Made by a program: the position numbers and the translations under genes. From a virus (lineage: Duplodnaviria; Heunggongvirae; Uroviricota; Caudoviricetes), in the IMG/VR virus record IMGVR_UViG_3300031993_000051: a stretch of DNA of 64,000 bases. One strand, written 5' to 3'. Positions 9,748 through 53,627 of the stretch are shown here, piece after piece. Positions within the stretch are counted from its first letter, which is position 1. The number at the start of each line of letters is the position of its first letter. Below the pieces are notes generated by a model that had not been told where the DNA came from, searched no databases, and worked only from the letters and a program-made list of their open reading frames with translations.

Positions 9748-10686
9748 TTAAAGAATTTTATAACCTTTTTGCTTTAAGAATTCAACCGCTTCTTGTACTT
9801 GCCTACTTGATCTTCTTTGCATGATTTCTTGTTGGAATTTTTGAGTAAATTTCTTAAGAGCATCTGGATCTTTTATCTCTGCAGGTAATCTATCGTAAAC
9901 ACCAAGTTCTTCAGCTTTTTTACAAAGGACGTTTGGTCTAAAACGTTTAGTAATAACAAGGTCCATAATTTCATCTTCTGTTCCAGTGCGAAGAATATCT
10001 ACAACTTCAGGTTGAGTTCTAATTTCCAATCTATTCCAAATCTTTGGTTTCATAATTGGTTGGTTGAAATTGAACTTATAACTATCTTTATTTGCTCTTG
10101 ATTGCAACTGACCGATAGTATAACCTTTTCTAATTAATTTACTATGGTTTCCAGAATAGAAATCAGCAATATCGCTTTCATCTTTCCAACCTTCAATAGT
10201 TGCTTTTAATATATGTTGACGAACAGCCTTTTGAACTTCTGCATCAGGTTTAATATCAATGTCTAAGTCATTATTCGGCATTGCAACATAATCTTGAGAA
10301 GTATCTTCATCGTCTTCCTTAGGGAAACGGTTGATAGTTCCGGTATATTCAGGAATATCGATATATTTGTTCTTATACTGTTCGATTACTTCATCAGTTA
10401 AAATTTCAGAAACGAACCAAGGAACACGATAATTTTCACCCATGGTTAAATAACCAAACATCAAAGCTCGTTTTGCAAAACTATCTGCTCTTTTTAAGAA
10501 CTCACTTTTTTCTTCCCTGTTATTACCAACATTGCCATTTTTTAAGAATTTGATTAAGTTAGTAATTGTATTATGACATGCTATAAAATAACTTTTTTTG
10601 TAGTTGCTATTTTTATTTTCTTCTACAAGTTCTTTGGTTTTTGTGAGTGCTTTTCTCAAACCAAGCATTAATGAATCATATCCCAT
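9748..10686 (-). CDS. hypothetical protein with C-terminal SAP/HeH-like motif
   Basis: 312 aa. The C-terminus VQEAVEFLKQKGYKIL matches the recurring h-x-E-A-x-x-L-L-K-x-x-G-Y-x-I motif of this window. Confidence 0.45.
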   Translation of the reverse strand: MGYDSLMLGLRKALTKTKELVEENKNSNYKKSYFIACHNTITNLIKFLKNGNVGNNREEKSEFLKRADSFAKRALMFGYLTMGENYRVPWFVSEILTDEVIEQYKNKYIDIPEYTGTINRFPKEDDEDTSQDYVAMPNNDLDIDIKPDAEVQKAVRQHILKATIEGWKDESDIADFYSGNHSKLIRKGYTIGQLQSRANKDSYKFNFNQPIMKPKIWNRLEIRTQPEVVDILRTGTEDEIMDLVITKRFRPNVLCKKAEELGVYDRLPAEIKDPDALKKFTQKFQQEIMQRRSSRQVQEAVEFLKQKGYKIL

Positions 10687-10744
10687 ATTAGTTCCCTTAA
10701 TTTTATTATATTTATAAAAAATTCGGATAAATGTAAAATTTTAT

Positions 10745-20699: not shown

Positions 20700-20708
20700 T
20701 GAGGATTT

Positions 20709-21842: not shown

Positions 21843-21845
21843 ATT

Positions 21846-24064: not shown

Positions 24065-24101
24065 TTTTTTATAAATAATATAAAATTATTAAGGAGAAAA
24101 A

Positions 24102-25388
24102 ATGAATTTAAATGAAGCAAGAGATATTCTCGGTAAATGTGGATATTCATTTTTGAAGGAATCTACAGAATTAACCAGAGATATTATGCTTAAATATGCT
24201 AAGCAATTAGCACAGCAAAATGATAAAATTGGTATTATCAAAGGAAAAAATCCGGAAGATGGCGATTTTGATATAATCATTTATTATAATAATGATAAGA
24301 TTAAAGTCGCATCATATAAGGGTTATGAAAATGAATTTTATGTAAGGGAATTTAAGAGTTCTTTATCTGGAATGCCAATAAAGAAAGTTGAAACCTTAGA
24401 AGAATTACGTTCATATATTGGTTCTACATTGAAATATATGGAAAAATATAAAGAAGACAACAATAATCAATACAAGACAAGTGTCGAAGATATTGAAAAA
24501 GATAAGGAAGAATGGGCTAACAACATGGATCAAAACGAATCATTAAAACTTAAAAAGGCATTACAGTTCCTTGCTGAATGCGGTTATACAATCAGTAAAG
24601 ATACAAGAATTGACGAAATGTCCCGTGCATCTGACCGTGTTCTTGGTCATGATTCTGCAGAAAACTTGCTTTATATGCTTGCTGACTGGAAGAAACAGTA
24701 TGACAGAACTGGTAAGAATGCTACATTAGGTCAATTTGCCAAATTTGTTCAAGATAATGGCATTAGTTGGGACTTAATTAGTGGTCTCAGCTTACCAGGA
24801 TTACCAAGAACAGAACCTCCTACACGTTCATCTAGGAGAATTGATTTGGAAGCTATTATTGCTTCTTTACAAGGTCAGCTTGGACAAGATGTTAGCGATG
24901 TTCGTAACCGTGTTGACCGTGGCAAGGATGATTATGATAGATTAATCGACACCTTCTGGGATTATTATGAAAAGAACCGTGATGGTGAAGATGTTTCTGC
25001 ACTTGTTGATTCTGAAAATTTCCAGGCACTCATTAGATTGTTTGCTGAAGAACCAGAAACTGCACAGGAAGTCTTTGGTAGAAACTATGACAAGGCTAAT
25101 AGCAAGTTACAGAGATTTATTAATCCTGATTCCGCAGCTGCTTTGATTGGCGAATTCTGGGATTGGTATTATGCTAAGAAGGCTGGTCGTGACATTGACT
25201 TCGATCCAGAAAAGGCAGAAAAGATTGCAGACTTGCTTGAAACCCCGAATGCTAAGGATGAAATTTTCGGCGGTAACGGTTCTTACTATACTGTTCTTAG
25301 AACAATTAGTAACATTGTTGGTAGACAGCTTGGTCAGAGAGATGCAGACTTCGATTACGATTCTTTGAATGGTGATTTGAGCCTCTAA
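24102..25388 (+). CDS. protein with two SAP/HeH-like motifs
   Basis: MNLNEARDILGKCGYSFL at the N-terminus and a second copy, LKLKKALQFLAECGYTIS, around residue 145. Strong SD AAGGAGA. Confidence 0.5.
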   Translation: MNLNEARDILGKCGYSFLKESTELTRDIMLKYAKQLAQQNDKIGIIKGKNPEDGDFDIIIYYNNDKIKVASYKGYENEFYVREFKSSLSGMPIKKVETLEELRSYIGSTLKYMEKYKEDNNNQYKTSVEDIEKDKEEWANNMDQNESLKLKKALQFLAECGYTISKDTRIDEMSRASDRVLGHDSAENLLYMLADWKKQYDRTGKNATLGQFAKFVQDNGISWDLISGLSLPGLPRTEPPTRSSRRIDLEAIIASLQGQLGQDVSDVRNRVDRGKDDYDRLIDTFWDYYEKNRDGEDVSALVDSENFQALIRLFAEEPETAQEVFGRNYDKANSKLQRFINPDSAAALIGEFWDWYYAKKAGRDIDFDPEKAEKIADLLETPNAKDEIFGGNGSYYTVLRTISNIVGRQLGQRDADFDYDSLNGDLSL

Positions 25389-42485: not shown

Positions 42486-42779
42486 ATGTTAGATACTTTA
42501 ATGTTAATCTGTGGTTTTTGTGGAGCTGGTGCTTTTGCAGTTTGTTCATTACCACAAGTTATTAAAGCTTATAAAACTAAGTCGACAGGTGATATAAGTA
42601 TTTTCTTTATTATCTTGTCAATTATCGGTAATTTATGTAGTGCTGCTTATATATTCTATACTAATTATATAAGTGGAATGTGGCAATATCCGCAATATGT
42701 AAATTATACTTTGGCAACTATACTTATATTTATCCTTCTCGGGTTAAAACTAAAATATGATAAGGAAAATAAAAAATGA
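42486..42779 (+). CDS. SemiSWEET / PQ-loop small transporter
   Basis: CSLPQVIKAYKTKSTGDIS, compared with the SemiSWEET pattern SFLPQVLRVVMTKQTRDIS. Three predicted TM helices over about 97 aa. The real start is probably the ATG at 42486 (SD AAGGAAG), not the TTG at 42441 that lies inside the terminator hairpin. Confidence 0.7.
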   Translation: MLDTLMLICGFCGAGAFAVCSLPQVIKAYKTKSTGDISIFFIILSIIGNLCSAAYIFYTNYISGMWQYPQYVNYTLATILIFILLGLKLKYDKENKK

Positions 42780-43435
42780 GTATAATGGATCTTATCGGTG
42801 TTCAAAGAGGAATTGATTTTGAACATAGTTTACCAACTGTAATGCGATATAAACCTGATATAAGAGAAGGTTATGAATATGGCAGTTTTGAACCTAAATA
42901 TGGTCATACGCCAAATTGGCAACCTTTATGTAGTAATTCTTCAGACTTATATAAAGAAATCGTTTTAGCATGTAAGCAAGTTGCAAAAGTTACAGAAATG
43001 AAAAATCCAATAGGTAATGATCCTTTTTGGCATCGTAGTGGACCTGAACGTGCAGGAACGATTGTTTCTAAGATAATACAGCTTTGTAATGATATTGCTA
43101 TTGCTACTCGACAAGGTCAAGGCAATGTTATTGTATTAAATACTAAGATGTATGATTTATTACGTGAGTTAACATTTGGTTTTATGGATTGCCCATTTAT
43201 TTCTGAATCTGCTCCAGGCGTATTAAAGATTGTTGGAAGAGATGCTTTTAAAATGGATTTTGACGATTATTCAAATTATCCAGAAGCTATTATGACATAT
43301 CATTCTAATAATTCGTGTGTATGTGGTGCTATTGCAGCACTTAGTCCTACCGAGACTTATTTTTCAATTAATACTGATATGGAAGGAACAGAGAATTATT
43401 ATAGACTTTTAAGGGTAAAAGATGAATTACAGTAA
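42776..43435 (+). CDS. hypothetical protein, paralog A (flanks nrdG)
   Basis: Related to 43903..44574 (DLIGVQ / DLIKVQ; GNVIVLNTKMYDLLREL / GNYILINNAFKKELEEL; C-terminal YYRLLRV / YYRLIKLV). Confidence 0.4.
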   Translation: MSIMDLIGVQRGIDFEHSLPTVMRYKPDIREGYEYGSFEPKYGHTPNWQPLCSNSSDLYKEIVLACKQVAKVTEMKNPIGNDPFWHRSGPERAGTIVSKIIQLCNDIAIATRQGQGNVIVLNTKMYDLLRELTFGFMDCPFISESAPGVLKIVGRDAFKMDFDDYSNYPEAIMTYHSNNSCVCGAIAALSPTETYFSINTDMEGTENYYRLLRVKDELQ

Positions 43436-43934
43436 AATTGATCCAATGAGTATTGTCGATGGTGACGGTTGTCGAGTAACACTTTTTGTTTCAGGTTGTA
43501 GAAATCATTGTAAAGGGTGTTTTAATCCAGAAACATGGAATTTTGACTATGGTCAACCATATACAGAAATTACAGAAAATGAAATTATTGAAGCCTGTAA
43601 GAAATCATATATTGCTGGGTTAACTGTTCTTGGTGGAGAACCAATGGAAAAAGAAAACCAAGCAGAAATTTATAAACTCATTACTAATTTCAAACGTGCA
43701 TATCCTGGTAAAAATGTTTGGTTATTTACTGGTTATATTTATGAAAAAGATTTATTAGAAGGTCAGCGTCAAAATATAAATGGGTTAACTTCTTCTTTAT
43801 TAGAAATGGTTGATATTCTGGTTGACGGACCATTTATTCTTGAACAGAGAGATTTGAATTTAAAGTTTAGGGGAAGCACGAATCAAAGGCTATTAACAAG
43901 AGATGAAAGACAAAGGTTACAAAATGACAATTAA
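43422..43934 (+). CDS. nrdG: anaerobic RNR activating enzyme (radical SAM)
   Basis: VTLFVSGCRNHCKGCFNPETW (CxxxCxxC) and GGEP. Confidence 0.8.
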   Translation: MNYSKIDPMSIVDGDGCRVTLFVSGCRNHCKGCFNPETWNFDYGQPYTEITENEIIEACKKSYIAGLTVLGGEPMEKENQAEIYKLITNFKRAYPGKNVWLFTGYIYEKDLLEGQRQNINGLTSSLLEMVDILVDGPFILEQRDLNLKFRGSTNQRLLTRDERQRLQNDN

Positions 43935-44574
43935 AGACTTAATTAAAGTCCAGAAGAAAGACGGATTATTTAAAAACTGTGCATCCGTTTTAAGATATAT
44001 TCCAAGAGAACTATTATTCGATGGTAGAGAAGCTGACCGTCCAGAATTAACATTGGGTCTTGAAAGACAACTTATCCATGAAAAAGATTGGAAAGATGCA
44101 AGTGATGAAAGTAAGAAAGAATTAGATGTAATTCATGCATGTATGGATGTTGCTAATGTTATTGAAATTCACAAAGATCCAGAGTCTACTGCTTCTAAAG
44201 AAGAACGTTGTGGTGTATTGTTGACTAATTTAATGAAGGAATGTAATTCTATTAGAACAAGTACTCGCCGTTGTGCAGGTAATTATATTCTTATTAATAA
44301 TGCATTTAAGAAAGAATTAGAAGAACTTGGTGCATTTTCAACTCCATTTATTAATGTTTCAACTGATAACACTGAATATCTTGTTAATGGTGTTATTAAA
44401 ATGAGTGTTGCTGAGTTTGATGAAGATACACCAATGGCATTAATAGGATATTCTGGAACTAGTAGGTTTGATGGTGGAATCGTTTTAGCAGAAGACGAAG
44501 AAAATAATAAGTATGCGATTGCTGACCGATTCTACGATAGTGATAAGTATTATAGATTAATTAAACTTGTATAG
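43903..44574 (+). CDS. hypothetical protein, paralog B (flanks nrdG)
   Basis: See paralog A. Confidence 0.4.
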   Translation: MKDKGYKMTIKDLIKVQKKDGLFKNCASVLRYIPRELLFDGREADRPELTLGLERQLIHEKDWKDASDESKKELDVIHACMDVANVIEIHKDPESTASKEERCGVLLTNLMKECNSIRTSTRRCAGNYILINNAFKKELEELGAFSTPFINVSTDNTEYLVNGVIKMSVAEFDEDTPMALIGYSGTSRFDGGIVLAEDEENNKYAIADRFYDSDKYYRLIKLV

Positions 44575-44577
44575 AAT

Positions 44578-45507
44578 ATGAGATATATTAAAGGGAGAAG
44601 TAATTTAAGTTGCACAATTTTTGTGCCATGGGATTGTAATAATCATTGCAAGTTCTGTACATCTAAGCAGATGTATAAACAAAGAACTTGTGATATTAAT
44701 GCAATTCTTGCACAAATCAAAAAACTTAATGAAAATCCGTTAATTGAAGAATTTGTATTAACAGGTGGAGAACCATTAGCAGATATTGAGAAATGTCAGA
44801 TTCTTATTGATGCTATGGAGAAACCTGTTTATATCAATACTACATTCCCAACATTTACAGATTTGCCTGGAACAGTAGAAATGTCTAAAGTCAAGACGTT
44901 AATCGATTTCATTAATAATAATGAAAAGATTGGTGGTTTGAATATTTCCAGACATATGCATCAACAGTTTTATGAACCAGTTTTGCCAGTAGATATGTTT
45001 GCACATTTAATTAAGAAACATATTAAATTAAATGTAGTTCTTTCTAAGGAGTTTGATATAAACGAATTTAAAACGTTTATAGAACCATATAAAGAATTAG
45101 AAAATATATCTATTTGTATTAGAGCAGATTATCGGAATATTACTAAAGATAACTTAAAGAATCGTGATGATGTATTTGAAAAGTTAATTTTGGAATATGA
45201 ATATGAAAGTTCTGGTGGATGTATGGTCTGTAATGACGACAGATTCTGGAATAATAATTTATTAATTAGTTATCATCGTGGAATGGAACATTCTAAAGTA
45301 GTTTATGGTAATAAGATATTTGTAAATGATATTTTGATTACTATTGACGGTCAAGTTTATGATGACTGGGATTTAGTAACAAATACAGAATTTGAAAGAT
45401 GGGTATTTGGTGAATATTCATTGACAGATGATATATCTGAATATGAAAATGATCCAGTATATGTTGATTGGTTATTGAAAAAGAATGGTGAAGAAGGTAT
45501 ATTATGA
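44578..45507 (+). CDS. second radical-SAM enzyme, glycyl-radical-activase-like
   Basis: CTIFVPWDCNNHCKFCTS (CxxxCxxC directly followed by Cys-x-x, as in PflA/NrdG activases) and LTGGEPL. An extra CMVC pair near the C-terminus. Confidence 0.65.
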   Translation: MRYIKGRSNLSCTIFVPWDCNNHCKFCTSKQMYKQRTCDINAILAQIKKLNENPLIEEFVLTGGEPLADIEKCQILIDAMEKPVYINTTFPTFTDLPGTVEMSKVKTLIDFINNNEKIGGLNISRHMHQQFYEPVLPVDMFAHLIKKHIKLNVVLSKEFDINEFKTFIEPYKELENISICIRADYRNITKDNLKNRDDVFEKLILEYEYESSGGCMVCNDDRFWNNNLLISYHRGMEHSKVVYGNKIFVNDILITIDGQVYDDWDLVTNTEFERWVFGEYSLTDDISEYENDPVYVDWLLKKNGEEGIL

Positions 45508-45704
45508 CATTAACTGAATTAAGACAAAAACTTAAAACCGCAGGTATGAAACAACTTAAAATTACAGGTTGCGGTGGATATGTAGGATGTGGAACTGGTG
45601 GTTATTATGACTATGCCAATGCACATTTTGGAAATCCTCCACAATGGGTATCGTATAGTTGCGGATTTTATATGAGATGTGGTGGTCCTACTACATGTGG
45701 TTAA
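45504..45704 (+). CDS. 66-aa Cys/Gly/Tyr-rich peptide translationally coupled to the radical-SAM gene
   Basis: ATGA overlap with the upstream stop. Degenerate SAP-like N-terminus (MTLTELRQKLKTAGMKQL), then ITGCGGYVGCGTGGYYDY...YSCGFYMRCGGPTTCG (5 Cys, 11 Gly). Confidence 0.4.
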   Translation: MTLTELRQKLKTAGMKQLKITGCGGYVGCGTGGYYDYANAHFGNPPQWVSYSCGFYMRCGGPTTCG

Positions 45705-45710
45705 AAAGAA

Positions 45711-45738
45711 AGAGTCAAGAAAACCTTGACTCTTTTTA
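45711..45738. terminator. bidirectional intrinsic terminator
   Basis: agagtcaag-aaaac-cttgactct followed by TTTTT, between convergent genes. Confidence 0.6.
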
Positions 45739-45744
45739 TATTAT

Positions 45745-46356
45745 TTAAATTGATGGTTTAACATGTGTTATAGGCAGTCTAAGTAATTTATCTGGAAGTA
45801 TATTTAATTTTGAAAGTAATGTATATGCGACTTCACGACTAATACCAGATTCATATAAAGTTTCAATTATTTCAACTGTTCTTATCTCGCTAGTTTTTAT
45901 TTTACGTGCAAGTTTATAAATTTTAGTGAATTTAGAATAGTCATTACTTTCATTTATATTAATTATAATTTTGCCAGTTTTAGGATTTTTATATTCTGCA
46001 CAACCATAATATGAATTATATCCAGTAAATTCATATCTTTTATTTTTGACAATAATAGTTGCTGGTGTTTCATCTTCATCATCGTCATAATAATAACTGC
46101 CACAACCGCTACTATGACAACTAGAAACATATCCGCAACCTACTCTGACACTTCTGGATATTGTACCACATCCACCACCATAACTACTGCTACTACCACA
46201 TCCAGAACTATAGCTGGAACCGCAACCACTGCTGCCGCACCCAGAACTATAACTGCTGCTTCCGCTACAACCACCACTATAACTACCGCATTCATTAAGC
46301 CTACGAACAGTGTAGCCTTTATTTTTAAGTAATTCTCTTGCTTCTAATAAATTCAT
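45745..46356 (-). CDS. SAP-like motif protein with Cys/Gly/Ser/Tyr low-complexity repeat region
   Basis: MNLLEARELLKNKGYTV at the N-terminus. Then about 75 aa of (S)SGCGSS(Y) repeats, an acidic DDDEDE stretch, and a ~100-aa C-terminal domain. Confidence 0.5.
   Translation of the reverse strand: MNLLEARELLKNKGYTVRRLNECGSYSGGCSGSSSYSSGCGSSGCGSSYSSGCGSSSSYGGGCGTISRSVRVGCGYVSSCHSSGCGSYYYDDDEDETPATIIVKNKRYEFTGYNSYYGCAEYKNPKTGKIIININESNDYSKFTKIYKLARKIKTSEIRTVEIIETLYESGISREVAYTLLSKLNILPDKLLRLPITHVKPSI
46140..46325. repeat. imperfect short tandem DNA repeats (ccacaacc / gctactacc / agaactata units) encoding the CGS-rich segment
   Basis: Visible direct repeats on the + strand inside the 45745..46356 CDS. 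Confidence 0.45.
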
Positions 46357-46370
46357 AAATGCCCCTTACA

Positions 46371-46745
46371 TTAGAACAACCAGTCTAATTCTATCATTAC
46401 TCCCCATTTACAATATCTAATAGTTACATCAAAGCCTCGTTCTTTTGCAAGTTTAAAGTATTTTTTAAATATTGTAGGATTATCTTCGTATTCTTTATCA
46501 TGTACTATAATACCTGTACTACCTTCTTCATATTTAGCATGACCATATTTAACATTTGATAATATAGCATCAAGGCCAACAAGTTTTGATTCTTCTGCAG
46601 TAAGTTCATTTTTTATTGCAGTAAATTCATCAAACAGTAATTTTTGTTTGTCAGAATCTAATTTTATTGGGGCTTCTTCAAGTTCTTCTTTAATAATAGC
46701 ATAGCCATTATCTTTAAGTAATTCTGTTGCTTCTTGTAAGTTCAT
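46371..46745 (-). CDS. small SAP-like motif protein
   Basis: N-terminus MNLQEATELLKDNGYAII. Confidence 0.5.
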   Translation of the reverse strand: MNLQEATELLKDNGYAIIKEELEEAPIKLDSDKQKLLFDEFTAIKNELTAEESKLVGLDAILSNVKYGHAKYEEGSTGIIVHDKEYEDNPTIFKKYFKLAKERGFDVTIRYCKWGVMIELDWLF

Positions 46746-46758
46746 TTTAAATCCTTTA

Positions 46759-47193
46759 TTAAAAATTATTTAAAAATGCATGCATTATTGCACCTTTTTG
46801 GTAAATAGCATTACATTCTTCATAAACTGCTTTTTTGCTTTTTAGTTTCTTAAAGTCTTCTTCAGTTAATGGATTAGGATCTTCAGATTTCCAACCTAAT
46901 TCCCATGCTTCCTGTAGGTCTTTTTTAGGGGTATCATAGTCTTTGCAATAACGTTTTAAAACAATTTCACCAATATCTTTACCGGTATCGTTCAATTCTT
47001 TTTCAGAGAGAATGGTATTTTGATAGCCTATTTGGACGGTATTCTGTGCCCAAGAAGAATTTATAAGTTTAGAACGATATGCTAGATAATCATCGGCACT
47101 ATTAAAACGTATTTCAGATTCATTCATTACAGGTTTATCTATAACCTTGTAATGATTTTCTTTTAATATAGATATAGCTTCTTTTAAGTTCAT
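46759..47193 (-). CDS. small SAP-like motif protein
   Basis: N-terminus MNLKEAISILKENHYKVI. Confidence 0.5.
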   Translation of the reverse strand: MNLKEAISILKENHYKVIDKPVMNESEIRFNSADDYLAYRSKLINSSWAQNTVQIGYQNTILSEKELNDTGKDIGEIVLKRYCKDYDTPKKDLQEAWELGWKSEDPNPLTEEDFKKLKSKKAVYEECNAIYQKGAIMHAFLNNF

Positions 47194-47211
47194 AAGAGTA
47201 TTCTTTAAATA

Positions 47212-47847
47212 TTAGAGTTCTTCGTTAATTCTATCAGCAGCATCTTGTGGAGCAATAAGACCTTGATTATAAAGGTCAGCAGCAATTTGCTTTGCCCTTG
47301 GTAAATCTTCATCATCGAGCATACCACCATCTTCCTGAGCTAAAGATAGAGCCTTAGCAATATAGTCTTCTTCAGCATTTGGAACTATAGTTTCGATTTC
47401 ATCATCGTCAATCGGTGCAAATTCCATTTCATCAAAGAAAAGTTCAATCTTACGGCCAGGTTTCTTTTCTTCTCTGACATAACCAAGTTCCTTAAGAACT
47501 TCAGACCATTGTGTATTTTTGTATGTTCTTAGGCGAGACTTTACAAAAGCAATTTCACGTGGAGTCAAAACTTCACCATTCTGAACTTTTTCTGCTAATG
47601 GAGAAAGATAAGCAGCATCAGTTTGGTTAAAACCCCTATAATTACGTAAAACGGTACGTCTACCTTGCTTTTCGAAATCTACCTGACGTCCATACATACC
47701 AATGAGAAGAACAATAACGAACTTATCATTTTCCAAATATTCCTTAATTCGCTGATTAAGCTGGAAATTTGATGTATAAACATCTTCCTTTATGATTTTA
47801 TAACCGTGTTCTTTAATAACTTTAATAGCTTCTGCCATTTTTTTCAT
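47212..47847 (-). CDS. SAP-like motif protein (two copies)
   Basis: N-terminus MAEAIKVIKEHGYKII and an internal copy WSEVLKELGYV. Acidic C-terminus. Confidence 0.5.
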   Translation of the reverse strand: MKKMAEAIKVIKEHGYKIIKEDVYTSNFQLNQRIKEYLENDKFVIVLLIGMYGRQVDFEKQGRRTVLRNYRGFNQTDAAYLSPLAEKVQNGEVLTPREIAFVKSRLRTYKNTQWSEVLKELGYVREEKKPGRKIELFFDEMEFAPIDDDEIETIVPNAEEDYIAKALSLAQEDGGMLDDEDLPRAKQIAADLYNQGLIAPQDAADRINEEL

Positions 47848-47940
47848 AATTTAATCTCCTTACTATTATTTATAAGATAAAAACAGATTATATCCGATTA
47901 TTTTGAGTTATAAATAATAATAGAAAAAGGAAAGCTGCAT

Positions 47941-50900
47941 ATGATTATAAAAAACGGTAAAGTACTTGCTATAAATTCAGTAAAACATGATGATACTCTT
48001 AAGGGTAATGGTCTTAGCGGAACGCCATTAGGACTAAGTGAAACTGTAAAACAGGTAATAGAAAGTAAGCAAAATAAATTATCTCCAGCCGATAATACTA
48101 TTGCTATTTCTAATGACAAAATTAAGGTTAATACATCTGGTATTTCTGCTCAACAGATTCATCCGTCTGTTTTTGACCCGTATGCTTCTAAAACTTGGGT
48201 TAATGAACAAGGATTTTTAAAACAAGTAGCCCTTGAACCATATGCTTTATCAGCTGATGTAAGACGTGAATTTGATGCCTCTGCAGCATGGGTCAATGAC
48301 CGTTTTGAACATATCCCTGGTGCTGAAGCTTATTATGGTGGCAATGGAATTAATGTAGATGGACACAAGATTGACCTTACTGCTGATGTTGTTTCTCATA
48401 ATGAATTAACAGAAGCATTAAATCCATATGCAACTCAGGAATGGGTTGAAGGACACGGCTATTTAACAGATGCAGATTTAAGTGATTTTGCAACAAAAGA
48501 ATATGCACGTCAAGCTTCAGCTGCAGCTGTTTCTACTACTCAAAGTTGGGTAAATGATCAGGGTTATTTAAAAGCTAACGCATTAGACCCATATGCAAAA
48601 ACTTCAGATGTTAATGCACAATTTAATGCTACTTCTGCTTGGGCAAATGATAAATTCCAAGTTAAAGGTGATTATCTTACAAGTGCAGATTTAAATAATT
48701 ATTATACAAAAGATAAAGTTTATAATAAAGAAGAAATTGATACATTACTTGCAAATTTTGGTGGTTTTAAAGTAGTATCTGGTGATGCACAACAAAATTA
48801 TGCACCATCTTTAGATGAACACGGTGAATTATCTGACCATACAAAGCCAAATGAAAAAACTATTTACTTGACAAAAGTAAGTACATTGTTAGAAGATAAT
48901 TATAAAGAATGGATTTGGAAAGGTGGATCCATCTTTGATTGCATTGGTATTGCAACTATCGATTTACAAGGCTATGTAACTGATGAAGAATTAGCGGCAG
49001 AATTATTAAAGTATTATAAAAAATCAGATGTTGATGAGATGTTCCGAGTAACTTCTGCTTGGGCTAATGAAACATTCCAGCCTATTGGTGAATATGTTAG
49101 TGCATCAAAGTTAAATGAGTATTATACAAAAACAGAAGTTGATGCAGAATTTAGAGAAACTTCTAGTTGGGCTAATGAAACATTCCAGCCTATTGGTAAA
49201 TATGTCAGTGCAACAGACTTAGACAATTATTATACTAAGTCTGAAGTTAATAATCAGTTTGAAGATTTATCTGCTACTGTTTCTAGCGAATATGCTAAGA
49301 AGACAGATATTCCAGAAGTTCCAGTTTATACTGCAGCTAATGAATATATTAAGATTACTAATGATTATGGTGTTTCTGGTTATGACTGGACAGATAAAAT
49401 TAATACAAAGCAAGATGTTTTAACAATCGAACAACTTTCTGCAATTAGTTCTGTAAGTTCTGTTCAAGTTGTTTCTGGCAATTGGGTTACTTCTGCTTCT
49501 GATATTATCAGTGCTGAGGGTTTAGCATATTTCTTAGTCAAGGACGGAGATAGTTCTAAGTGGGAAGGTGTTAATCTCTCTACATTGGGTAGTTCTTACG
49601 ATGTTACTTCTGAAGATGATACTTTATTACATGTTACAACAGCAGTTGATAATGGTGATGTAACATATACATTAAGCGCAAAAGATTGGACTACTGAGCT
49701 CGATGAAAAACAAGATAAACTCACAGAAGAACAAATCGAAGCAATTAGCTCTGTAAGTGCAATTCAGAATACTTCTGGAAATTGGGTTACTTCTGGTATT
49801 GATACAATCAGTGACCCTGCTCTTGCTTATGTTTTGGTCAGGGACGGTAATAGTTCTAAATGGAATGGTGTAGATTTATCTACATTAGGAAAAACATATA
49901 ATGTTTCTTCTGTAACTGAAAACTTGCTTACTGTTTCTGCTAAGACAGAAGATAACCAAACAACATATATTTTAAGTGCTGCTGATTATCCAGAAATTCC
50001 AGAAATTCCTGATATTGTTGGTAGTGGTCTTGAAGCAGAATATGATGATGTAAATAACGAATATCTTGTTACAATGAGTGCAAGAGGTAATAATGGTATT
50101 TCTGCTGCTTATGATGATGAAAATAATGTTTGGGATATTGGTTTAAGTGCAAATAATTTTGCATATATGTATGATTCTTATACAAACGGCTATGTTGGTG
50201 ATGTTAGTGCAAATACAATTCTTAATTTTAGTGGAACTAATCATAATAATATTACAGTTGATCAAGACGGTTATATTATATTACCAGAGACCGGTAATAA
50301 GTTTACTTTCTGTATAAATGAATATATTGATAATAATAACCCTGGAACACATAGTTACTTATTAAATAAATTAACATTAAGTTCTGATAAAGGTGATAAT
50401 CTTGCTTCTACAATGACATATTATCCAACCGAAGTTGGTGCAAGTAATGCAACATTGGCAATTACTATTGACCATTCTGTAGATCCTACAAGAAAATATG
50501 CGGTTGTTTATGAAGGAAGTACAATTCCACTTTCTGCATATTTGAATGCAACTATCAGCGTTGTTGAAGAAGTTTCAACACTTGGTATGATTAATCGTGG
50601 TGAAAGCGACGTTTATGTAGGTGATAAGCCAATTAATGTCAATAATGATACAAGACATATTAGCCTTGGTTTTGATACTGGTATTTTCACATTAAATAGT
50701 AATCAAGAATTAACACTTAATGCAAATGGTACTGGTGGTGGTGATACTCCAGTTGATCCTGTTGCATTTAATAAGTTACTTAATAGCATTAATGGTCGTA
50801 TTGTTGAAACAATCCCTATCGGTGTTATTAATTATGCAACTGCTCTTAATAATAATTATTCCATTGCATATCTATTCAGACCAATGATTGAATTCGATAT

Positions 50901-51327
50901 GACACCTCAGACAACTGCCAGATTTATTGCAGGTAATGCCAGTGCAGGTAATTCTACTGTCATGATTGACGTTTATGAATTAAATGAATCTAATTACACA
51001 ATAAATCTTATGTGGTGGAGTGAAACTAAGACATTAACTACATCTAAGGGCGAACAGGTATTAAATGCAAACAATGGTTGTACTCAAACAAAAACAATTT
51101 ATCCAGATAGATTGTATTATGCTAGAATTATTTGTACTGGACAACAGATACAACAGTTATTAGGTATAAATAATACAGTAACTGAAGATATAGGACCTTA
51201 TGACCTTGTATATGTCAACGACCATCCAGACACTAATCCATTTAACTTGGAGGGTAGAACAGTTAATAATCTTGGTGTTGTTGGAAATGCTAGCTTTAAA
51301 CCATATATCGGCTTTAAGAATACGTAG
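47941..51327 (+). CDS. long tail fibre protein
   Basis: 1128 aa with many TxxWVNDQGYL / YYTKxEVD-type phage tail-fibre repeats and internal tandem duplications. Confidence 0.7.
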   Translation: MIIKNGKVLAINSVKHDDTLKGNGLSGTPLGLSETVKQVIESKQNKLSPADNTIAISNDKIKVNTSGISAQQIHPSVFDPYASKTWVNEQGFLKQVALEPYALSADVRREFDASAAWVNDRFEHIPGAEAYYGGNGINVDGHKIDLTADVVSHNELTEALNPYATQEWVEGHGYLTDADLSDFATKEYARQASAAAVSTTQSWVNDQGYLKANALDPYAKTSDVNAQFNATSAWANDKFQVKGDYLTSADLNNYYTKDKVYNKEEIDTLLANFGGFKVVSGDAQQNYAPSLDEHGELSDHTKPNEKTIYLTKVSTLLEDNYKEWIWKGGSIFDCIGIATIDLQGYVTDEELAAELLKYYKKSDVDEMFRVTSAWANETFQPIGEYVSASKLNEYYTKTEVDAEFRETSSWANETFQPIGKYVSATDLDNYYTKSEVNNQFEDLSATVSSEYAKKTDIPEVPVYTAANEYIKITNDYGVSGYDWTDKINTKQDVLTIEQLSAISSVSSVQVVSGNWVTSASDIISAEGLAYFLVKDGDSSKWEGVNLSTLGSSYDVTSEDDTLLHVTTAVDNGDVTYTLSAKDWTTELDEKQDKLTEEQIEAISSVSAIQNTSGNWVTSGIDTISDPALAYVLVRDGNSSKWNGVDLSTLGKTYNVSSVTENLLTVSAKTEDNQTTYILSAADYPEIPEIPDIVGSGLEAEYDDVNNEYLVTMSARGNNGISAAYDDENNVWDIGLSANNFAYMYDSYTNGYVGDVSANTILNFSGTNHNNITVDQDGYIILPETGNKFTFCINEYIDNNNPGTHSYLLNKLTLSSDKGDNLASTMTYYPTEVGASNATLAITIDHSVDPTRKYAVVYEGSTIPLSAYLNATISVVEEVSTLGMINRGESDVYVGDKPINVNNDTRHISLGFDTGIFTLNSNQELTLNANGTGGGDTPVDPVAFNKLLNSINGRIVETIPIGVINYATALNNNYSIAYLFRPMIEFDMTPQTTARFIAGNASAGNSTVMIDVYELNESNYTINLMWWSETKTLTTSKGEQVLNANNGCTQTKTIYPDRLYYARIICTGQQIQQLLGINNTVTEDIGPYDLVYVNDHPDTNPFNLEGRTVNNLGVVGNASFKPYIGFKNT
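49040..49260 (+). repeat. 108-nt (36-aa) tandem duplication inside the tail-fibre gene
   Basis: gggctaatgaaacattccagcctattggt occurs at 49061 and again at 49169. Confidence 0.7.
49411..50010 (+). repeat. ~300-nt (100-aa) tandem duplicated module inside the tail-fibre gene
   Basis: QDVLTIEQLSAISSVSSVQVVSGNWVTS...LSAKDW at 49411 repeats as QDKLTEEQIEAISSVSAIQNTSGNWVTS...LSAADY at 49711. Confidence 0.65.
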
Positions 51328-51689: not shown

Positions 51690-53627
51690 ATGGCAGAATT
51701 GATAATTCAAAATCCAAGTATAACAACAGACGCCTTTGAATATGATGAAGCAGGGCGTGTTTCTGCTATTGCTGAACATCCTCTTGCTGGTGGAGGTGGT
51801 GGCACAATTGAAAAAAGTGACTTAATGTGGAAACCTAATGTTGGAAGTGATGGCTATGTTCGCTGGACACTCGCATCTTCTGCTACGACACCAGACGCAG
51901 CCTACATTTCTGGTGCACAAGGTCCCGCTGGTCCACAAGGTGTTTCTGGTAATCCTGGTAAAAATCCACTATTCCAGATTAACTCAGAAAATGCTCATTG
52001 GGAATGGAAATATTCAGGAGATGAGGGTTGGACAGATCTCGGAGTAGTAGCTTCTGGTGCTGTTGGTCCACAAGGTCTTTCTGGTGATGATGGTATTTCG
52101 CCAAAAGTCAGAATTAATAATTCAACTAATTTTTGGGAAATTTCTGAAGATGATGGTAAAACATGGACATCCACTAATGTTTCTGCAACCGGTCCTGCAG
52201 GTGAAGATGGTACAAATGGAACTAACGGTGTTTCTCCGACAGTTTCTACTTCTGCAATTCCTGGTGGTAACAGAGTTATATTTACTTACGACAATGGCGG
52301 AACTACTGCAACAGAATCAATCGATGTTATGAGCGGTGTTTCTGGTGCTAACGGTTCTGACGGTTTTTCTCCGACAGTTGTTACTGCTGCCATTCCAGTA
52401 TCAGAACAATTCCCGGCAGGTGGTACCGAGGTTACTATTACAGATAGTGATGGTCAGCATATATTTAATATTTCAAACGGCCTGGATGGGCAAGGTGCAA
52501 CAGTTAATCTTCTTGGTGGAGAAGGTATTGAAGTCACTAAAGTTGCCTCAAATTATACTATTTCTGTTTCTGCTGATTATGCAACTAAAGCTTATGTTGA
52601 AGCCGCAAGTGCTAATGCTTATAATGAAGCAGAAACTTGGGTTAGAAATCAAGGTTATTTGACATCAGTTCCTCCTGAATATGCCTTGACATCTGATATT
52701 CCTACAGCAGTTGCTCAATTAACAGATAGTGGAAATTATTATAAAAAGGCAGAAACAAGTGGCGCAACTGAAATTACCAATGCTTTGAGTACAAAACTTG
52801 ATTCAACTGCTGCTGCTCAAACATATCAAACTAAATCTGATATGGCTAATTACTTGACAACAAGCGACGCTTCTACTACATATCAGCCAAAAGGAAATTA
52901 TGCTTCTGCATCAGATATTGTTGGAATGGCTACTCAGACATGGGTTGGACAGCAAGGATTTATAACGAAAGATGCTAACGATTTAACATATTACTATAAG
53001 AAGACAGAAACAAGTGGTGCAAGTGAGTTATCTACTGAATTTGCAAAGTATGTTACCAAACCAGATTCTTCATTAGTAAATAATTATTTAGTATTAAGAA
53101 CAGATAATGCTGGTAATGTAAGTGGTTGGTGTGACTTCAATGATCAATGTTATTCAAAATCAGAAGCATTAGGAACATTTGTTGCTACAGCTAACATAGA
53201 CACTACAACATTATCAGGTGATGGTAAATCTGTAAGTACAAAACTAGGTGTAAAGACAGATGTTATTGCTACTACAGATTATGTAAATAGTAGTTTCTTA
53301 CCAACTTCAGGTGGAACAGTATCTGGTGAAACAATACTAAGTGCCGCAACAGGAACATTTGATGGTAGTTATCTTAAATGTGTCAATGATGGTAATAATG
53401 GTTATGCCAGATTTGGTGTCGGTAGTTATGGTGGGGCTGTAATTAAAGCAGTAGATGGTAGTAATAATAGAGTTCAAGTAAATGTAAAAACAAATTCAAA
53501 TAATAATGAATTAATTTCAGTACAAACAAATGATTCTACTATTGGTTATTTAATTCCTGCCGTAACTTCAACAACAACTGCTGGACTAACAAATGATGGT
53601 ATTCTACATATTATTGTAGAGAGTTAA
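51690..53627 (+). CDS. collagen-like repeat tail fibre protein
   Basis: Four ~47-aa modules, each with a short G-X-Y run (GAQGPAGPQGVSGNPG, GAVGPQGLSGDDG, GPAGEDGTNGTNG, GVSGANGSDG) followed by SP(K/T)V. Tail-fibre repeats (TWVRNQGYLT...) lie further downstream. Confidence 0.7.
   Translation: MAELIIQNPSITTDAFEYDEAGRVSAIAEHPLAGGGGGTIEKSDLMWKPNVGSDGYVRWTLASSATTPDAAYISGAQGPAGPQGVSGNPGKNPLFQINSENAHWEWKYSGDEGWTDLGVVASGAVGPQGLSGDDGISPKVRINNSTNFWEISEDDGKTWTSTNVSATGPAGEDGTNGTNGVSPTVSTSAIPGGNRVIFTYDNGGTTATESIDVMSGVSGANGSDGFSPTVVTAAIPVSEQFPAGGTEVTITDSDGQHIFNISNGLDGQGATVNLLGGEGIEVTKVASNYTISVSADYATKAYVEAASANAYNEAETWVRNQGYLTSVPPEYALTSDIPTAVAQLTDSGNYYKKAETSGATEITNALSTKLDSTAAAQTYQTKSDMANYLTTSDASTTYQPKGNYASASDIVGMATQTWVGQQGFITKDANDLTYYYKKTETSGASELSTEFAKYVTKPDSSLVNNYLVLRTDNAGNVSGWCDFNDQCYSKSEALGTFVATANIDTTTLSGDGKSVSTKLGVKTDVIATTDYVNSSFLPTSGGTVSGETILSAATGTFDGSYLKCVNDGNNGYARFGVGSYGGAVIKAVDGSNNRVQVNVKTNSNNNELISVQTNDSTIGYLIPAVTSTTTAGLTNDGILHIIVES

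What the first reader, a model, noticed from the sequence alone, without database searches (positions are those of the whole stretch)
45504..47847. A roughly 15-aa SAP/HeH-like motif recurs about ten times and defines a cluster of diverse small genes
The consensus h-x-E-A-x-x-L-L-K-x-(N/K)-G-Y-x-I starts the proteins at 24102(+), 45745(-), 46371(-), 46759(-) and 47212(-), with a degenerate copy at 45504(+). It recurs internally in 24102 (LKKALQFLAECGY) and 47212 (SEVLKELGYV). It also ends the 312-aa protein at 9748(-) (VQEAVEFLKQKGYKIL). It resembles one half of a SAP/HeH/Rho-N helix-extension-helix DNA-binding motif (ELRxELxxRGL). Four adjacent minus-strand genes carry it in front of unrelated bodies. 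That looks like a diversifying family built on a common targeting or binding module. It is analogous to T4 internal-protein or host-takeover loci, and each member starts with an LxE sequence like the T4 prohead-protease site.
Basis: seen in the sequence. Interest (0 to 1): 0.6.

Follow-up and report, generated by a model that had tools for sequence, protein, structure and literature searches.

The report
Shared N-terminal tag on phage proteins
A roughly 20-residue tag (MNLxEAKxLLKxxGYxhxE) heads well over a hundred unrelated small proteins, apparently expressed late, in a group of uncultivated T4-like large phages; it is most likely a portable docking signal, perhaps for loading proteins into the virion, and not a SAP/HeH DNA-binding domain.

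Summary
The window holds 7 robust copies: 5 at N-termini, 1 internal, 1 C-terminal. One more (45504) is marginal, and two claimed copies are not significant. A degenerate DNA pattern and a profile search find the same tag at residue 2-3 of 140 of 159 listed protein clusters (165 with E<=1e-3 among 1.84 billion representatives). It sits in front of unrelated, unannotated bodies, often in tandem gene arrays on low-GC viral contigs and on contigs of ruminant-gut MAGs. Conservation is at the protein level. No SAP/HeH signal was found by profile, alignment or model. Bodies exist without the tag, and the tag also occurs C-terminally and in 2-4 tandem copies, so it is an autonomous module. All three tag-bearing transcription units in the window follow a T4-type late promoter (TATAAATA). 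Best reading: a portable docking tag on late accessory proteins, most plausibly for recruitment into the prohead, analogous to the T4 capsid targeting sequence. This function is inferred, not shown. Separately, a radical-SAM gene with Cys/Gly-rich partners forms an inserted module at 44578-46356.

The parts
47782..47847 (-). Tag copy at the N-terminus of the 211-aa protein 47212-47847 (MKKMAEAIKVIKEHGYKIIKED)
   Evidence: PSSM leave-one-out score 21.2 bits. The tag is kept in orthologues down to 35% identity, but orthologue P0016 lacks it. In the AF2 model, residues 4-20 form a helix with pLDDT<50 that is not docked on the body. The body (aa 31-111) matches phrog_21015, whose profile has no room for the tag.
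47137..47193 (-). Tag copy at the N-terminus of the 144-aa protein 46759-47193 (MNLKEAISILKENHYKVID)
   Evidence: 28.4 bits. Orthologues in L001-L009 keep the tag.
46683..46745 (-). Tag copy at the N-terminus of the 124-aa protein 46371-46745 (MNLQEATELLKDNGYAIIKEE)
   Evidence: 30.7 bits. The gene is absent from L003, L006 and L008. In L004 its body is fused behind the first ~30 aa of the neighbouring Cys/Gly/Ser-rich protein, giving a 152-aa hybrid.
46291..46356 (-). Tag copy at the N-terminus of the 203-aa protein 45745-46356 (MNLLEARELLKNKGYTVRRLNE), followed by CGS(S/Y)-rich repeats
   Evidence: 26.8 bits. The protein is present only where the radical-SAM gene and the 66-aa peptide are present. 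A counterpart with tag plus RLNECG plus a Cys/Gly/Ser-rich region lies next to a 69%-identical radical-SAM gene in L121.
24102..24164 (+). Tag copy at the N-terminus of the 428-aa protein 24102-25388
   Evidence: 21.6 bits. Kept in the 83%-identical orthologue in L122.
24543..24605 (+). Internal tag copy in the 428-aa protein (aa 148-168, LKLKKALQFLAECGYTISKDT)
   Evidence: 22.1 bits as a non-seed hit, above every shuffle. Kept in L122. The same N-terminal plus internal architecture is seen in P0039, P0041, P0045, P0053 and the L016 312-aa protein.
9751..9804 (-). Tag copy forming the last 18 aa of the 312-aa protein 9748-10686 (RQVQEAVEFLKQKGYKIL-stop)
   Evidence: 27.5 bits. True C-terminal copies also occur in P0037 and P0096.
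45504..45704 (+). Gene for a 66-aa Cys/Gly/Tyr-rich peptide with a weakly tag-like N-terminus; it overlaps the radical-SAM stop codon by 4 nt
   Evidence: 7.8 bits, marginal. The peptide is identical in L003 and differs at 5 residues in the C-terminal part in L004. L121 has a 65-aa Cys/Gly peptide in the same position.
44578..45507 (+). Radical-SAM protein (CxxxCxxC at aa 20-27); part of the inserted module, not of the tag family
   Evidence: PF04055 at 1.7e-8 and PF13353. Only generic NCBIfam hits below cut-off. 342 homologues, several on contigs of 218-396 kb.
45707..45737 (.). Bidirectional terminator-like hairpin between the convergent 66-aa gene and the 203-aa gene
   Evidence: 13-bp stem followed by a T-run, on both strands.
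47867..47874 (-). TATAAATA (T4 late-promoter consensus) 20 nt upstream of the start of the four-gene tag operon
   Evidence: The context is TTATAAATAATAGTAAGGAG-N8-ATG. The same element lies 25 nt before the divergent tail-fibre gene, at 47909-47916(+).
24070..24077 (+). TATAAATA 25 nt upstream of 24102
   Evidence: Conserved in L122.
10709..10716 (-). TATAAATA 23 nt upstream of the start of 9748-10686(-)

Best explanation
The motif is a portable protein tag of about 20 residues, with consensus M-N-L-x-E-A-K-x-(I/L)-L-K-x-N-G-Y-h-h-x-E.

STRUCTURE (inferred). It reads as one fully capped amphipathic helix followed by a short hydrophobic strand. N2 is the N-cap and E5 completes the capping box. 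M1 and A6 form the hydrophobic staple. G14 and Y15 form a Schellman C-cap.

SHOWN.
- It is homologous across a large set of uncultivated, low-GC, distantly T4-like large phages.
- It is under protein-level selection.
- It sits almost always directly after the start Met of small soluble proteins whose bodies are unrelated and unannotated.
- It is separable from the bodies.
- It can also be C-terminal, internal or repeated in tandem.
- The genes lie in arrays whose content differs between related phages.

INFERRED FROM SEQUENCE. The genes are transcribed from T4-type late promoters, together with virion genes.

INFERRED MECHANISM. The exposed hydrophobic stripe (L3, A6, I/L9, L10, Y15, h16, h17) docks every tagged protein onto one common partner. 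The most likely partner is a component of the assembling prohead (scaffold/core or inner shell). Under this reading the diverse set of accessory or effector proteins is packaged and delivered with the DNA. This is what the T4 capsid targeting sequence does for internal proteins and Alt. Unlike the T4 sequence, this tag would work as a position-independent binding peptide, as encapsulin cargo-loading peptides do. N-L-x-E|A also fits the Glu-specific cleavage rule of T4-type prohead proteases, but cleavage there would remove only 5 residues.
For: TAG REALITY AND SPREAD.
- Seven copies in the window score 21-31 bits against a shuffle maximum of 17.5.
- A degenerate DNA pattern for M-N-[LF]-x-E-A-x-x-h-h-K-x-x-G-Y hits 17 sites in IMG/VR. 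All 17 are at ATG starts of 87-336-aa ORFs.
- The same pattern over 596 Gb of prokaryote genomes hits only Bacillaceae Zur, 2 Fervidobacterium sites and low-GC contigs of ruminant and other gut MAGs that carry the family. Chance matches are therefore negligible.
- A profile search finds 165 clusters at E<=1e-3. In 140 of the 159 listed proteins the tag lies at residue <=3.

UNRELATED BODIES.
- 45 tagged proteins fall into 31 BLASTP body families.
- 97 bodies of >=80 aa give only a handful of single weak Pfam/PHROG matches, mostly to the tag itself.

PROTEIN-LEVEL SELECTION. Four Ala codons, five Leu codons and four Gly codons are used at the conserved positions.

MODULARITY.
- Orthologue P0016 lacks the tag.
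- phrog_21015 covers the body only.
- The tag is not docked on the body in the AF2 model.
- C-terminal, internal and 2-4 tandem copies exist.
- A hybrid gene occurs in L004.

VARIABLE LOCUS. The window has 4 tagged genes at this site. L004 also has 4 but with a different set, L003 has 3, L006 and L008 have 2, and L010 has 1. Arrays of 4-6 tagged genes occur in L015, L018, L020 and L021.

LATE EXPRESSION.
- 13 of the 24 TATAAATA sites in the window lie within 40 nt upstream of a gene start, where 0.54 is expected (p~7e-16).
- These include all three tag-bearing transcription units and the tail-fibre gene, but not uvsX, gp41 or gp32.
- 17 of 32 tagged genes have TATAAATA within 60 nt upstream, against 31 of 213 other genes (Fisher p=4e-6).

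T4 KINSHIP. UvsX-, gp41- and gp32-like genes are present. The best cultured match is the RB49 group at 29% identity.

LITERATURE.
- The T4 capsid targeting sequence is a 10-residue N-terminal peptide that is sufficient for packaging, and internal proteins are otherwise diverse (PMC9026906, PMC3012670).
- The T4 late-promoter consensus is TATAAATA (PMC1524935).
- Prohead proteases cut after Glu, and the SPN3US head paralogues gp53/gp54 keep identical N-termini (PMC5694885).

BODIES WITH A KNOWN DOMAIN. One is a TM + SLT lytic transglycosylase. One body has a weak hit to the PHROG 'internal head protein' family (2e-4).
Against: - There are no virion proteomics and no cultured relative, so packaging is pure inference.
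- The tag has no sequence similarity to the T4 capsid targeting sequence (MKTYQEFIAE).
- The T4 sequence is strictly N-terminal and is removed. Here copies also occur at C-termini, internally and in tandem, and a cut after E5 would leave nearly the whole conserved part on the protein.
- The conserved N-x-x-E and G-Y are fully explained by helix capping, without any protease.
- Late promoters are predicted from a consensus borrowed from T4, and late expression also fits non-virion roles.
- Bodies are mildly acidic (median pI 5.1), unlike the basic T4 internal proteins.
- The SLT protein with a Gly/Ala-rich membrane segment could equally be an endolysin.
- The only structural model has pLDDT<50 over the tag. 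The model of a 3-copy protein failed.
- No prohead protease or scaffold gene of this phage was examined, because none lies in the window.
Confidence: 0.4

Rival explanations
1. The tag is a generic oligomerisation or docking handle unrelated to the virion. The capped helix plus strand pairs with another copy (helix packing plus a two-stranded sheet) or with a non-structural hub protein. Tagged proteins would thus homo- or hetero-oligomerise, or gather on a cytoplasmic or membrane partner late in infection.
For: - Seven of about 20 residues are hydrophobic, so the unit must be buried by a partner.
- Tag-only mini-proteins exist, such as P0022 (38 aa, two copies).
- Proteins with 2-4 tandem copies separated by charged linkers exist (P0058, P0061, P0141). 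N-terminal plus C-terminal copies occur in one chain (P0037, P0096).
- The tag is not docked on its own body.
- A membrane-anchored SLT enzyme carries it on the predicted cytoplasmic side.
Against: - No multimer prediction could be run, and the single-chain model of the 3-copy protein was uninformative (pLDDT 45).
- This reading does not by itself explain why more than 100 unrelated ORFan families, enriched behind late promoters, should share one handle.
Confidence: 0.25
2. The motif is one half of a SAP/HeH/Rho-N helix-extension-helix DNA-binding motif and tethers the proteins to DNA.
For: - The hydrophobic pattern L3/A6/L10/G14/aromatic-15 can be laid over the first SAP helix and its Gly turn (by inspection).
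- The same local signature opens the winged-helix DNA-binding domain of Bacillaceae Zur (Fur family): MNLTEALRLMKDKGYKHTGKRE.
Against: - No SAP, HeH, Rho_N or LEM hit at E<=1. The recurrent sub-threshold hits are PASTA, Nif11, L7/L12-C, UPF0180, LytR_C and PepSY.
- The best PDB sequence match is a substrate-binding-protein helix, NLKEAKRLVKESGY. The signature is therefore a generic helix-Gly-aromatic unit.
- No second helix is conserved (A3, A7).
- The C-terminal copy stops 3 aa after GY.
- The AF2 model shows no helix-extension-helix fold.
- The tag is close to neutral in net charge (by inspection of the consensus).
Confidence: 0.07
3. The tag is a leader or recognition peptide for the neighbouring radical-SAM enzyme (a RiPP-like system). 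The tagged proteins would be its substrates.
For: - Radical-SAM gene 44578-45507 is translationally coupled to a 66-aa Cys/Gly-rich peptide. It faces the tagged Cys/Gly/Ser-rich 203-aa protein.
- The three genes are present or absent together.
- L121 (radical-SAM 69% identical) has the same trio.
- L119 (44% identical) has a downstream protein with a tag-like LSEALREALERRGIVFRRDN and a Cys/Gly-rich tail.
Against: - Most tagged proteins have no Cys-rich region and are 90-430 aa long.
- Related phages L006, L008 and L010 keep tagged genes at this locus but have no such radical-SAM gene within the fetched 11-21 kb.
- Tagged genes at 9748 and 24102 lie far from the radical-SAM gene.
- The small peptide in L121 has no tag-like N-terminus.
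- At best this holds for the Cys/Gly/Ser-rich subfamily only.
Confidence: 0.05
4. The tag has no common partner. It is a favoured 'start cassette' (late promoter + Shine-Dalgarno + a stable, well-translated, protease-resistant N-terminal helix). It would spread by recombination and serve mainly as a homology patch for shuffling ORFan genes, or it simply reflects old paralogy.
For: - The promoter/Shine-Dalgarno/start context is stereotyped: TTATAAATAATA-N8-10-AGGAG-N6-8-ATGAAT.
- The L004 hybrid gene has a breakpoint just after the tag.
- Fusion proteins exist in which an internal copy still carries its own Met (P0041, P0053).
Against: - Synonymous codons vary freely while the residues stay the same.
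- C-terminal and tandem internal copies cannot be start cassettes.
- The same promoter context precedes untagged late genes such as the tail fibre.
- Conservation extends across phages whose orthologous proteins are only 35-59% identical.
Confidence: 0.1

Closest known systems
T4 capsid targeting sequence (CTS) of internal proteins IPI/II/III and Alt, and the variable internal-protein loci of T-even phages
   Same: A short conserved N-terminal peptide sits on otherwise unrelated, fast-evolving accessory proteins. The genes lie in loci that vary between related phages. Expression is late. A (L/I)-x-E|A-like sequence lies at the N-terminus. The phage background is T4-like.
   Different: There is no sequence similarity to MKTYQEFIAE. 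The tag is twice as long, and its conserved part lies after the putative cut. It also occurs C-terminally, internally and in tandem. Bodies are mostly acidic rather than basic. Packaging and cleavage are untested.
Giant phage SPN3US/phiKZ head proteins with N-terminal propeptides (for example paralogues gp53/gp54 with identical first 15 residues)
   Same: Diverged paralogues keep a conserved N-terminus that is thought to target them to the prohead. The protease is Glu-specific (PMC5694885).
   Different: Those propeptides are mostly longer than 100 aa, the paralogues share homologous bodies, and there is no sequence relation to this tag.
Encapsulin cargo-loading (targeting) peptides (from my own knowledge, not tested here)
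   Same: A short conserved peptide recruits diverse cargo to the inside of an HK97-fold shell. It works as a binding epitope, is not cleaved, can sit at either terminus and can be repeated.
   Different: The sequence is different and the peptide is usually C-terminal and extended rather than helical. Encapsulins are cellular compartments. No shell interaction has been shown here.
SAP / HeH / Rho-N helix-extension-helix motifs
   Same: The first helix, the Gly turn and the hydrophobic spacing resemble the first half of the motif.
   Different: The second helix is absent, there is no profile match and no predicted helix-extension-helix fold.
Generic 'helix-x-x-G-aromatic-strand' units in PASTA, Nif11, the Fur/Zur N-terminal helix and SBP_bac_5
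   Same: The local sequence signature is the same. Examples are Zur MNLTEALRLMKDKGYKHT and AccA NLKEAKRLVKESGY, plus sub-threshold PASTA and Nif11 hits.
   Different: In those families the unit is an integral part of a larger conserved domain. Here it stands alone in front of unrelated bodies and is far more tightly conserved.
Polymorphic toxin / effector families with conserved N-terminal trafficking modules and variable C-termini (PMC3482391)
   Same: The architecture matches: a constant targeting end, variable payloads, and recombination at the junction (the hybrid gene in L004).
   Different: Those trafficking domains are much larger and belong to secretion systems. No toxin or immunity signatures were seen here.

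Membership tests
SAP / HeH / Rho_N / LEM (helix-extension-helix) | Significant match to the family profile (PF02037, PF12949, PF07498) | tested here: not met
   None of these families is listed at E<=1 for the six window proteins or for ten multi-copy proteins.
SAP / HeH / Rho_N / LEM (helix-extension-helix) | Bipartite ~35-aa motif with a conserved second helix after the Gly-containing linker | tested here: not met
   Alignments A3 (37 tags) and A7 (97 proteins) show no conservation beyond about residue 19-21. The C-terminal copy ends 3 aa after GY.
SAP / HeH / Rho_N / LEM (helix-extension-helix) | Helix-extension-helix fold | tested here: inconclusive
   The AF2 model of the 211-aa protein shows a single helix at residues 2-13 and then coil, with pLDDT<50 over residues 4-20. 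The second model failed.
SAP / HeH / Rho_N / LEM (helix-extension-helix) | DNA binding | not testable with these tools
   Needs a gel-shift or similar assay.
T4-type capsid targeting sequence / internal proteins | Short conserved N-terminal peptide on otherwise unrelated proteins | tested here: met
   In 140 of 159 proteins the tag lies at residue <=3. 45 local proteins fall into 31 body families.
T4-type capsid targeting sequence / internal proteins | Sequence similarity to the T4 CTS (MKTYQEFIAE) | tested here: not met
   By inspection of consensus A3 against the T4 CTS as I recall it; the papers read here describe the CTS but do not print its sequence.
T4-type capsid targeting sequence / internal proteins | Late expression together with head genes | tested here: met
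   Met at sequence level only. TATAAATA lies 20-25 nt upstream of all three tag-bearing units. 17 of 32 tagged genes have it, against 31 of 213 other genes.
T4-type capsid targeting sequence / internal proteins | Strictly N-terminal propeptide removed by the prohead protease after (L/I)-x-E | tested here: inconclusive
   N-L-x-E|A is present in most copies. However, a cut there would remove only 5 aa, and copies also occur C-terminally, internally and in tandem. Cleavage itself is not testable here.
T4-type capsid targeting sequence / internal proteins | Presence of the proteins in the virion and ejection into the host | not testable with these tools
   No cultured relative exists.
RiPP leader peptide of a radical-SAM maturase | Precursor gene next to the maturase, with a short Cys-rich core after the leader | tested here: not met
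   This holds only for 45504 and 45745. The other tagged genes have no Cys-rich core, and L006, L008 and L010 have tagged genes at this locus with no such radical-SAM gene in the fetched stretch.
PASTA / Nif11 / Fur N-terminal helix | Match above the family's gathering score that covers the whole domain | tested here: not met
   Only partial matches to PASTA profile positions ~7-35 of 64. One of them, P0061, exceeds the gathering score as a whole-protein sum (27.7 vs 23.2 bits) but no single stretch is significant and the domain is not covered. Nif11 scores 18 bits against a cut-off of 23.8. Zur shares only the first ~17 aa.

The most novel reading that the evidence does not exclude
The tag is a position-independent cargo-loading signal. 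It would define the whole set of proteins that a large, uncultivated clade of T4-like gut and rumen phages packs into the head and injects with its DNA. That set would comprise more than 150 families of unknown effectors, readable directly from sequence. A sub-branch may have been co-opted as the recognition handle of a phage radical-SAM enzyme that modifies Cys/Gly-rich proteins.
Probability: 0.3. Interest if true: 0.8.

Novelty: new variant of a known kind. Interest (0 to 1): 0.62.

Why it matters
If the tag is a targeting signal, a simple sequence rule would pick out the delivered or co-assembled accessory proteins of a whole clade of uncultivated large phages. These would be candidate anti-defence and host-takeover effectors that today are pure ORFans; 97 bodies gave no convincing Pfam or PHROG match. 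It would also provide a second, unrelated example of the T4 capsid-targeting principle, and one that is position-independent and repeatable, which is useful for engineering cargo loading. Even without the function, the tag is an unannotated, tightly conserved module. No Pfam, PHROG or NCBIfam model and no paper found here describes it. It deserves a family model, because it links more than 150 protein clusters that otherwise share nothing.

Tried and rejected
- blastn of the region and of uvsX/gp41 DNA against INPHARED found no match.
- tblastn of a 22-aa consensus against INPHARED found nothing convincing.
- The search for related loci with the 124-aa protein and with 9748 found no relatives in IMG/VR. 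Conservation of the C-terminal copy in orthologues could therefore not be checked.
- The search for homologous proteins with the motif profile collected only 39 candidates, mostly gene fragments. It was superseded by the exhaustive profile search.
- AF2 of the 3-copy protein P0058 without an alignment gave pLDDT 45 and was uninformative.
- Foldseek of the 211-aa model against BFVD and PDB found no significant match, only weak winged-helix-like hits at E>0.2. The afdb50 library was not available.
- I guessed that the L014 269-aa body is an ADP-ribosyltransferase (Alt-like). Pfam and PDB sequence searches do not support this, so I dropped it.
- I considered HicA-like and Nif11-like origins. Only sub-threshold local similarity exists.
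- I considered conservation at the DNA/RNA level. It is rejected by synonymous codon variation.
- P0043, P0054, P0063, P0090 and P0120 in the profile hit list are other repeat families (collagen-like, 46-aa repeats, tail-fibre repeats, decapeptide repeats), not members.

Full report
**1. What is in the window**

The window has about 32% G+C and matches no phage in INPHARED at the DNA level. It encodes UvsX-, gp41- and gp32-like replication proteins and NrdD/NrdG. The gp41-like helicase is only 29% identical to its best cultured match, T4-like phages of the RB49 group. Homologues of window proteins lie on contigs of 289-294 kb. The source is therefore a large, very distant T4-like phage.

The flagged region has the following layout:
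- a radical-SAM gene at 44578-45507(+);
- a 66-aa Cys/Gly-rich ORF at 45504-45704(+), overlapping the radical-SAM stop codon by 4 nt;
- a bidirectional terminator-like hairpin at 45707-45737;
- four minus-strand genes separated by 12-18 nt: 45745-46356, 46371-46745, 46759-47193 and 47212-47847;
- a 93-nt divergent promoter region;
- a 1128-aa tail-fibre-like gene at 47941.

**2. Check of the observation**

A regular expression and a PSSM built from the copies find seven strong instances:
- five at N-termini (45745, 46371, 46759, 47212, 24102);
- one internal, in 24102 at aa 148-168;
- one formed by the last 18 residues of 9748-10686(-).

Leave-one-out scores are 21-31 bits. The best score in 200 shuffled proteomes is 17.5 bits. 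The 45504 N-terminus scores 7.8 bits, which is at chance level apart from its position. The claimed internal copy in 47212 and other look-alikes are not significant.

The bodies of the tagged window proteins are unrelated by BLASTP. The one exception is a weak 124-aa vs 144-aa alignment that includes the tag.

**3. The motif is a widespread phage tag, not a local oddity**

Scan of viral contigs. A degenerate DNA pattern for M-N-[LF]-x-E-A-x-x-h-h-K-x-x-G-Y was run over IMG/VR.
- It gave 17 sites in 14 stretches from 12 contigs (up to 424 kb, 30-39% G+C).
- Every site is at the ATG of an 87-336-aa ORF with a different body.
- Scanning those loci with the PSSM shows arrays of 4-6 tagged genes in L015, L018, L020 and L021.

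Scan of prokaryote genomes. The same pattern over 596 Gb of prokaryote genomes acts as a specificity control. The hits are:
- the N-terminus of Bacillaceae Zur (a Fur-family protein with the same local signature);
- two Fervidobacterium sites;
- low-GC contigs inside ruminant and other gut MAGs that carry the phage family.

Profile search. A profile of the window copies was searched against 1.84 billion representative proteins.
- It finds 165 clusters at E<=1e-3.
- In 140 of the 159 listed proteins the tag starts at residue 2-3.
- Many of the 'internal' hits are preceded by a Met, which points to start-site miscalls or fusions of neighbouring tagged genes.
- Five hits are other repeat families and are not members.

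Bodies.
- 45 tagged proteins from the window and loci fall into 31 BLASTP body families.
- Among 97 bodies of >=80 aa, only a handful of single weak Pfam/PHROG matches appear, mostly to the tag itself. One is a weak PHROG hit to 'internal head protein'.
- The few bodies with known domains are a membrane-anchored SLT lytic transglycosylase and a double zinc ribbon.
- Bodies are soluble and mildly acidic, with median pI 5.1.

No paper containing the motif strings was found.

**4. Nature of the module**

Conserved residues use many synonymous codons: four for Ala6, five for Leu10 and four for Gly14. Selection therefore acts on the protein.

The near-invariant positions are exactly those that cap a helix (established helix-capping rules, my own knowledge):
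- N2 is the N-cap and E5 is the capping-box residue;
- M1 and A6 form the hydrophobic staple;
- G14 and Y15 form a Schellman C-cap;
- two or three hydrophobic residues and an acidic residue follow.

The module is separable from what follows it:
- one orthologue of the 211-aa protein lacks the tag (P0016);
- phrog_21015 matches the body only;
- in an AlphaFold2 model built from 17 homologues, the body is confident (pLDDT 77-89) while residues 4-20 form a helix with pLDDT<50 that is not packed on it.

The module also occurs in other positions and numbers:
- at C-termini (window 9748; P0037; P0096);
- twice in one chain (window 24102 and its 83% orthologue; P0039, P0041, P0053);
- as 2-4 tandem copies separated by charged linkers (P0022, P0058, P0061, P0141).

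**5. SAP/HeH is not supported**

- No SAP, HeH, Rho_N or LEM profile is hit at E<=1.
- The recurrent sub-threshold hits are PASTA, Nif11, L7/L12-C, UPF0180, LytR_C and PepSY.
- The best PDB sequence match is a helix of a substrate-binding protein.

All of these share a generic helix-Gly-aromatic-strand unit. Nothing is conserved where a second SAP helix should lie.

**6. Context and expression**

The cluster lies in a region of variable gene content between the tail-fibre genes and nrdDG:

| Source | Tagged genes at the locus |
|---|---|
| Window | 4 |
| L004 | 4, a different set, including a hybrid: tag + RRLNECG of the Cys-rich protein fused to the body of the 124-aa protein |
| L003 | 3 |
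| L006, L008 | 2 |
| L010 | 1 |

The T4 late-promoter consensus TATAAATA (PMC1524935) occurs 24 times in the window.
- 13 of these sites lie within 40 nt upstream of a start codon, where 0.54 is expected (p~7e-16).
- They include all three tag-bearing transcription units and the tail-fibre gene, but not uvsX, gp41 or gp32.
- Over the window and 12 loci, 17 of 32 tagged genes have TATAAATA within 60 nt upstream, against 31 of 213 other genes (p=4e-6).
- The context is stereotyped: TTATAAATAATA-N8-10-AGGAG.

The tagged genes are therefore predicted to be late genes. This is an inference from a consensus borrowed from T4.

**7. Mechanism**

The combination of features closely parallels the T4 capsid targeting sequence on internal proteins and Alt (PMC9026906, PMC3012670, PMC5694885):
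- a constant terminal peptide;
- unrelated, fast-changing payloads;
- loci of variable content;
- late promoters;
- a T4-like background.

N-L-x-E|A also fits the Glu-specific prohead-protease rule.

The differences are important:
- there is no sequence similarity to the T4 sequence;
- the conserved part lies downstream of the putative cut;
- C-terminal and tandem copies exist.

I therefore favour a retained, position-independent docking peptide, which is how encapsulin cargo peptides work (my own knowledge), with the prohead interior as the most likely partner. I give this about 0.4. A non-virion docking or oligomerisation role is the main rival, at about 0.25. Nothing here demonstrates packaging.

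**8. The radical-SAM module**

The radical-SAM gene, the 66-aa peptide and the tagged Cys/Gly/Ser-rich 203-aa protein are present or absent together.
- The radical-SAM family has 342 homologues, several on contigs of 218-396 kb.
- L121 (69% identical) has the same trio.
- L119 (44% identical) has a downstream protein with a tag-like LSEALREALERRGIVFRRDN and a Cys/Gly-rich tail.

This looks like a phage protein- or peptide-modifying system in which a tag-like element may act as the recognition handle. It cannot explain the tag family at large, because most members lack Cys-rich regions and three related phages (L006, L008, L010) have no such radical-SAM gene near their tagged genes.

**9. Verdict**

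The SAP/HeH label is rejected. The 'common targeting module on diverse proteins, T4 internal-protein-like' idea is supported and greatly extended. The tag is an undescribed family-level feature whose function has not been demonstrated.

Noticed in passing
window 44578-46356; L121 5001-6497; L119 4001-5455: A radical-SAM gene is translationally coupled to a ~65-aa Cys/Gly/Tyr-rich peptide and faces a Cys/Gly/Ser-rich protein. The trio is inserted as a unit: present in the window, L003 and L004, absent in L006 and L008. The pairing with Cys/Gly-rich partners holds down to 44% radical-SAM identity, on a 269-kb contig in the case examined. It is a candidate phage RiPP-like or protein-modifying system. 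No SPASM-type Cys cluster is evident, and NCBIfam gives only generic hits (NrdG2, HxsC, YydG, CXXX-repeat maturase), all far below cut-off.
   Followed up: partly
window 42776-43435 and 43903-44574: Two paralogous ~220-aa proteins (28% identical, E~1e-19) flank nrdG. One matches the middle of the T4 major capsid protein family Gp23 just above the Pfam cut-off (PF07068, 27.3 vs 24.4 bits) and the other just below it (22.3 bits). They are conserved in L003, L004 and L006. Their function is unknown.
   Followed up: no
L004 11156-11614: A 152-aa hybrid gene. Its first ~30 aa (tag + RRLNECG) come from the Cys/Gly/Ser-rich protein and are joined to the body of the window's 124-aa protein. This is direct evidence of recombination just behind the tag.
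   Followed up: partly
L018 10974-11501 and 12647-13516; L020 2627-3256; L021 735-3476 and 3547-6246: A second, related N-terminal signature occurs on other proteins of the same contigs: MNLNEW(T/V)MN.AAGLL(N/T)E and MNL(E/D)YAAYLLNE.(H/Y)ILNEDA. The latter heads two ~900-aa proteins. It continues as ...LNEDANSSGI.KA..W, which resembles the L016 312-aa tagged protein.
   Followed up: no
window-wide, e.g. 47909-47916(+), 33891(+), 7539(-), 19539(+), 29909(+): The T4-type late-promoter consensus TATAAATA is strongly enriched 5-31 nt upstream of start codons (13 of 24 sites). The usual context is TATAAATAATA-N8-10-AGGAG. This suggests gp55-like late transcription in this distant T4-like phage.
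   Followed up: partly
L026-L105 (Bacillaceae chromosomes): The N-terminus of Bacillaceae Zur (Fur family; MNLTEALRLMKDKGYKHTGKRE...) matches the tag's DNA and amino-acid pattern over ~15 residues. I take this as convergence on the same capped helix-turn unit. It is the only non-phage family found in 596 Gb.
   Followed up: partly
window 19551-23384: Three consecutive paralogous genes of 382, 377 and 512 aa (26% identity, E~1e-17; third member weaker) lie behind a TATAAATA site and directly upstream of the region holding tagged gene 24102. They have no PHROG match.
   Followed up: no
window 47941-51327 and 51690-53627: The tail-fibre-like proteins share repeats. They carry recurring W-V-x-x-x-G-(F/Y)-L units, a different 'xxGY-strand' repeat that also surfaced as a false positive (P0090) in the profile search.
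   Followed up: no
P0054 (2559 aa), residues ~500-1215: A giant protein from the representative library has 11 repeats with a 46-aa period containing T(Y/F)AEA(K/R)SFLEANGYSPS. This is a tag-like unit embedded in a larger repeat domain of unknown type.
   Followed up: no
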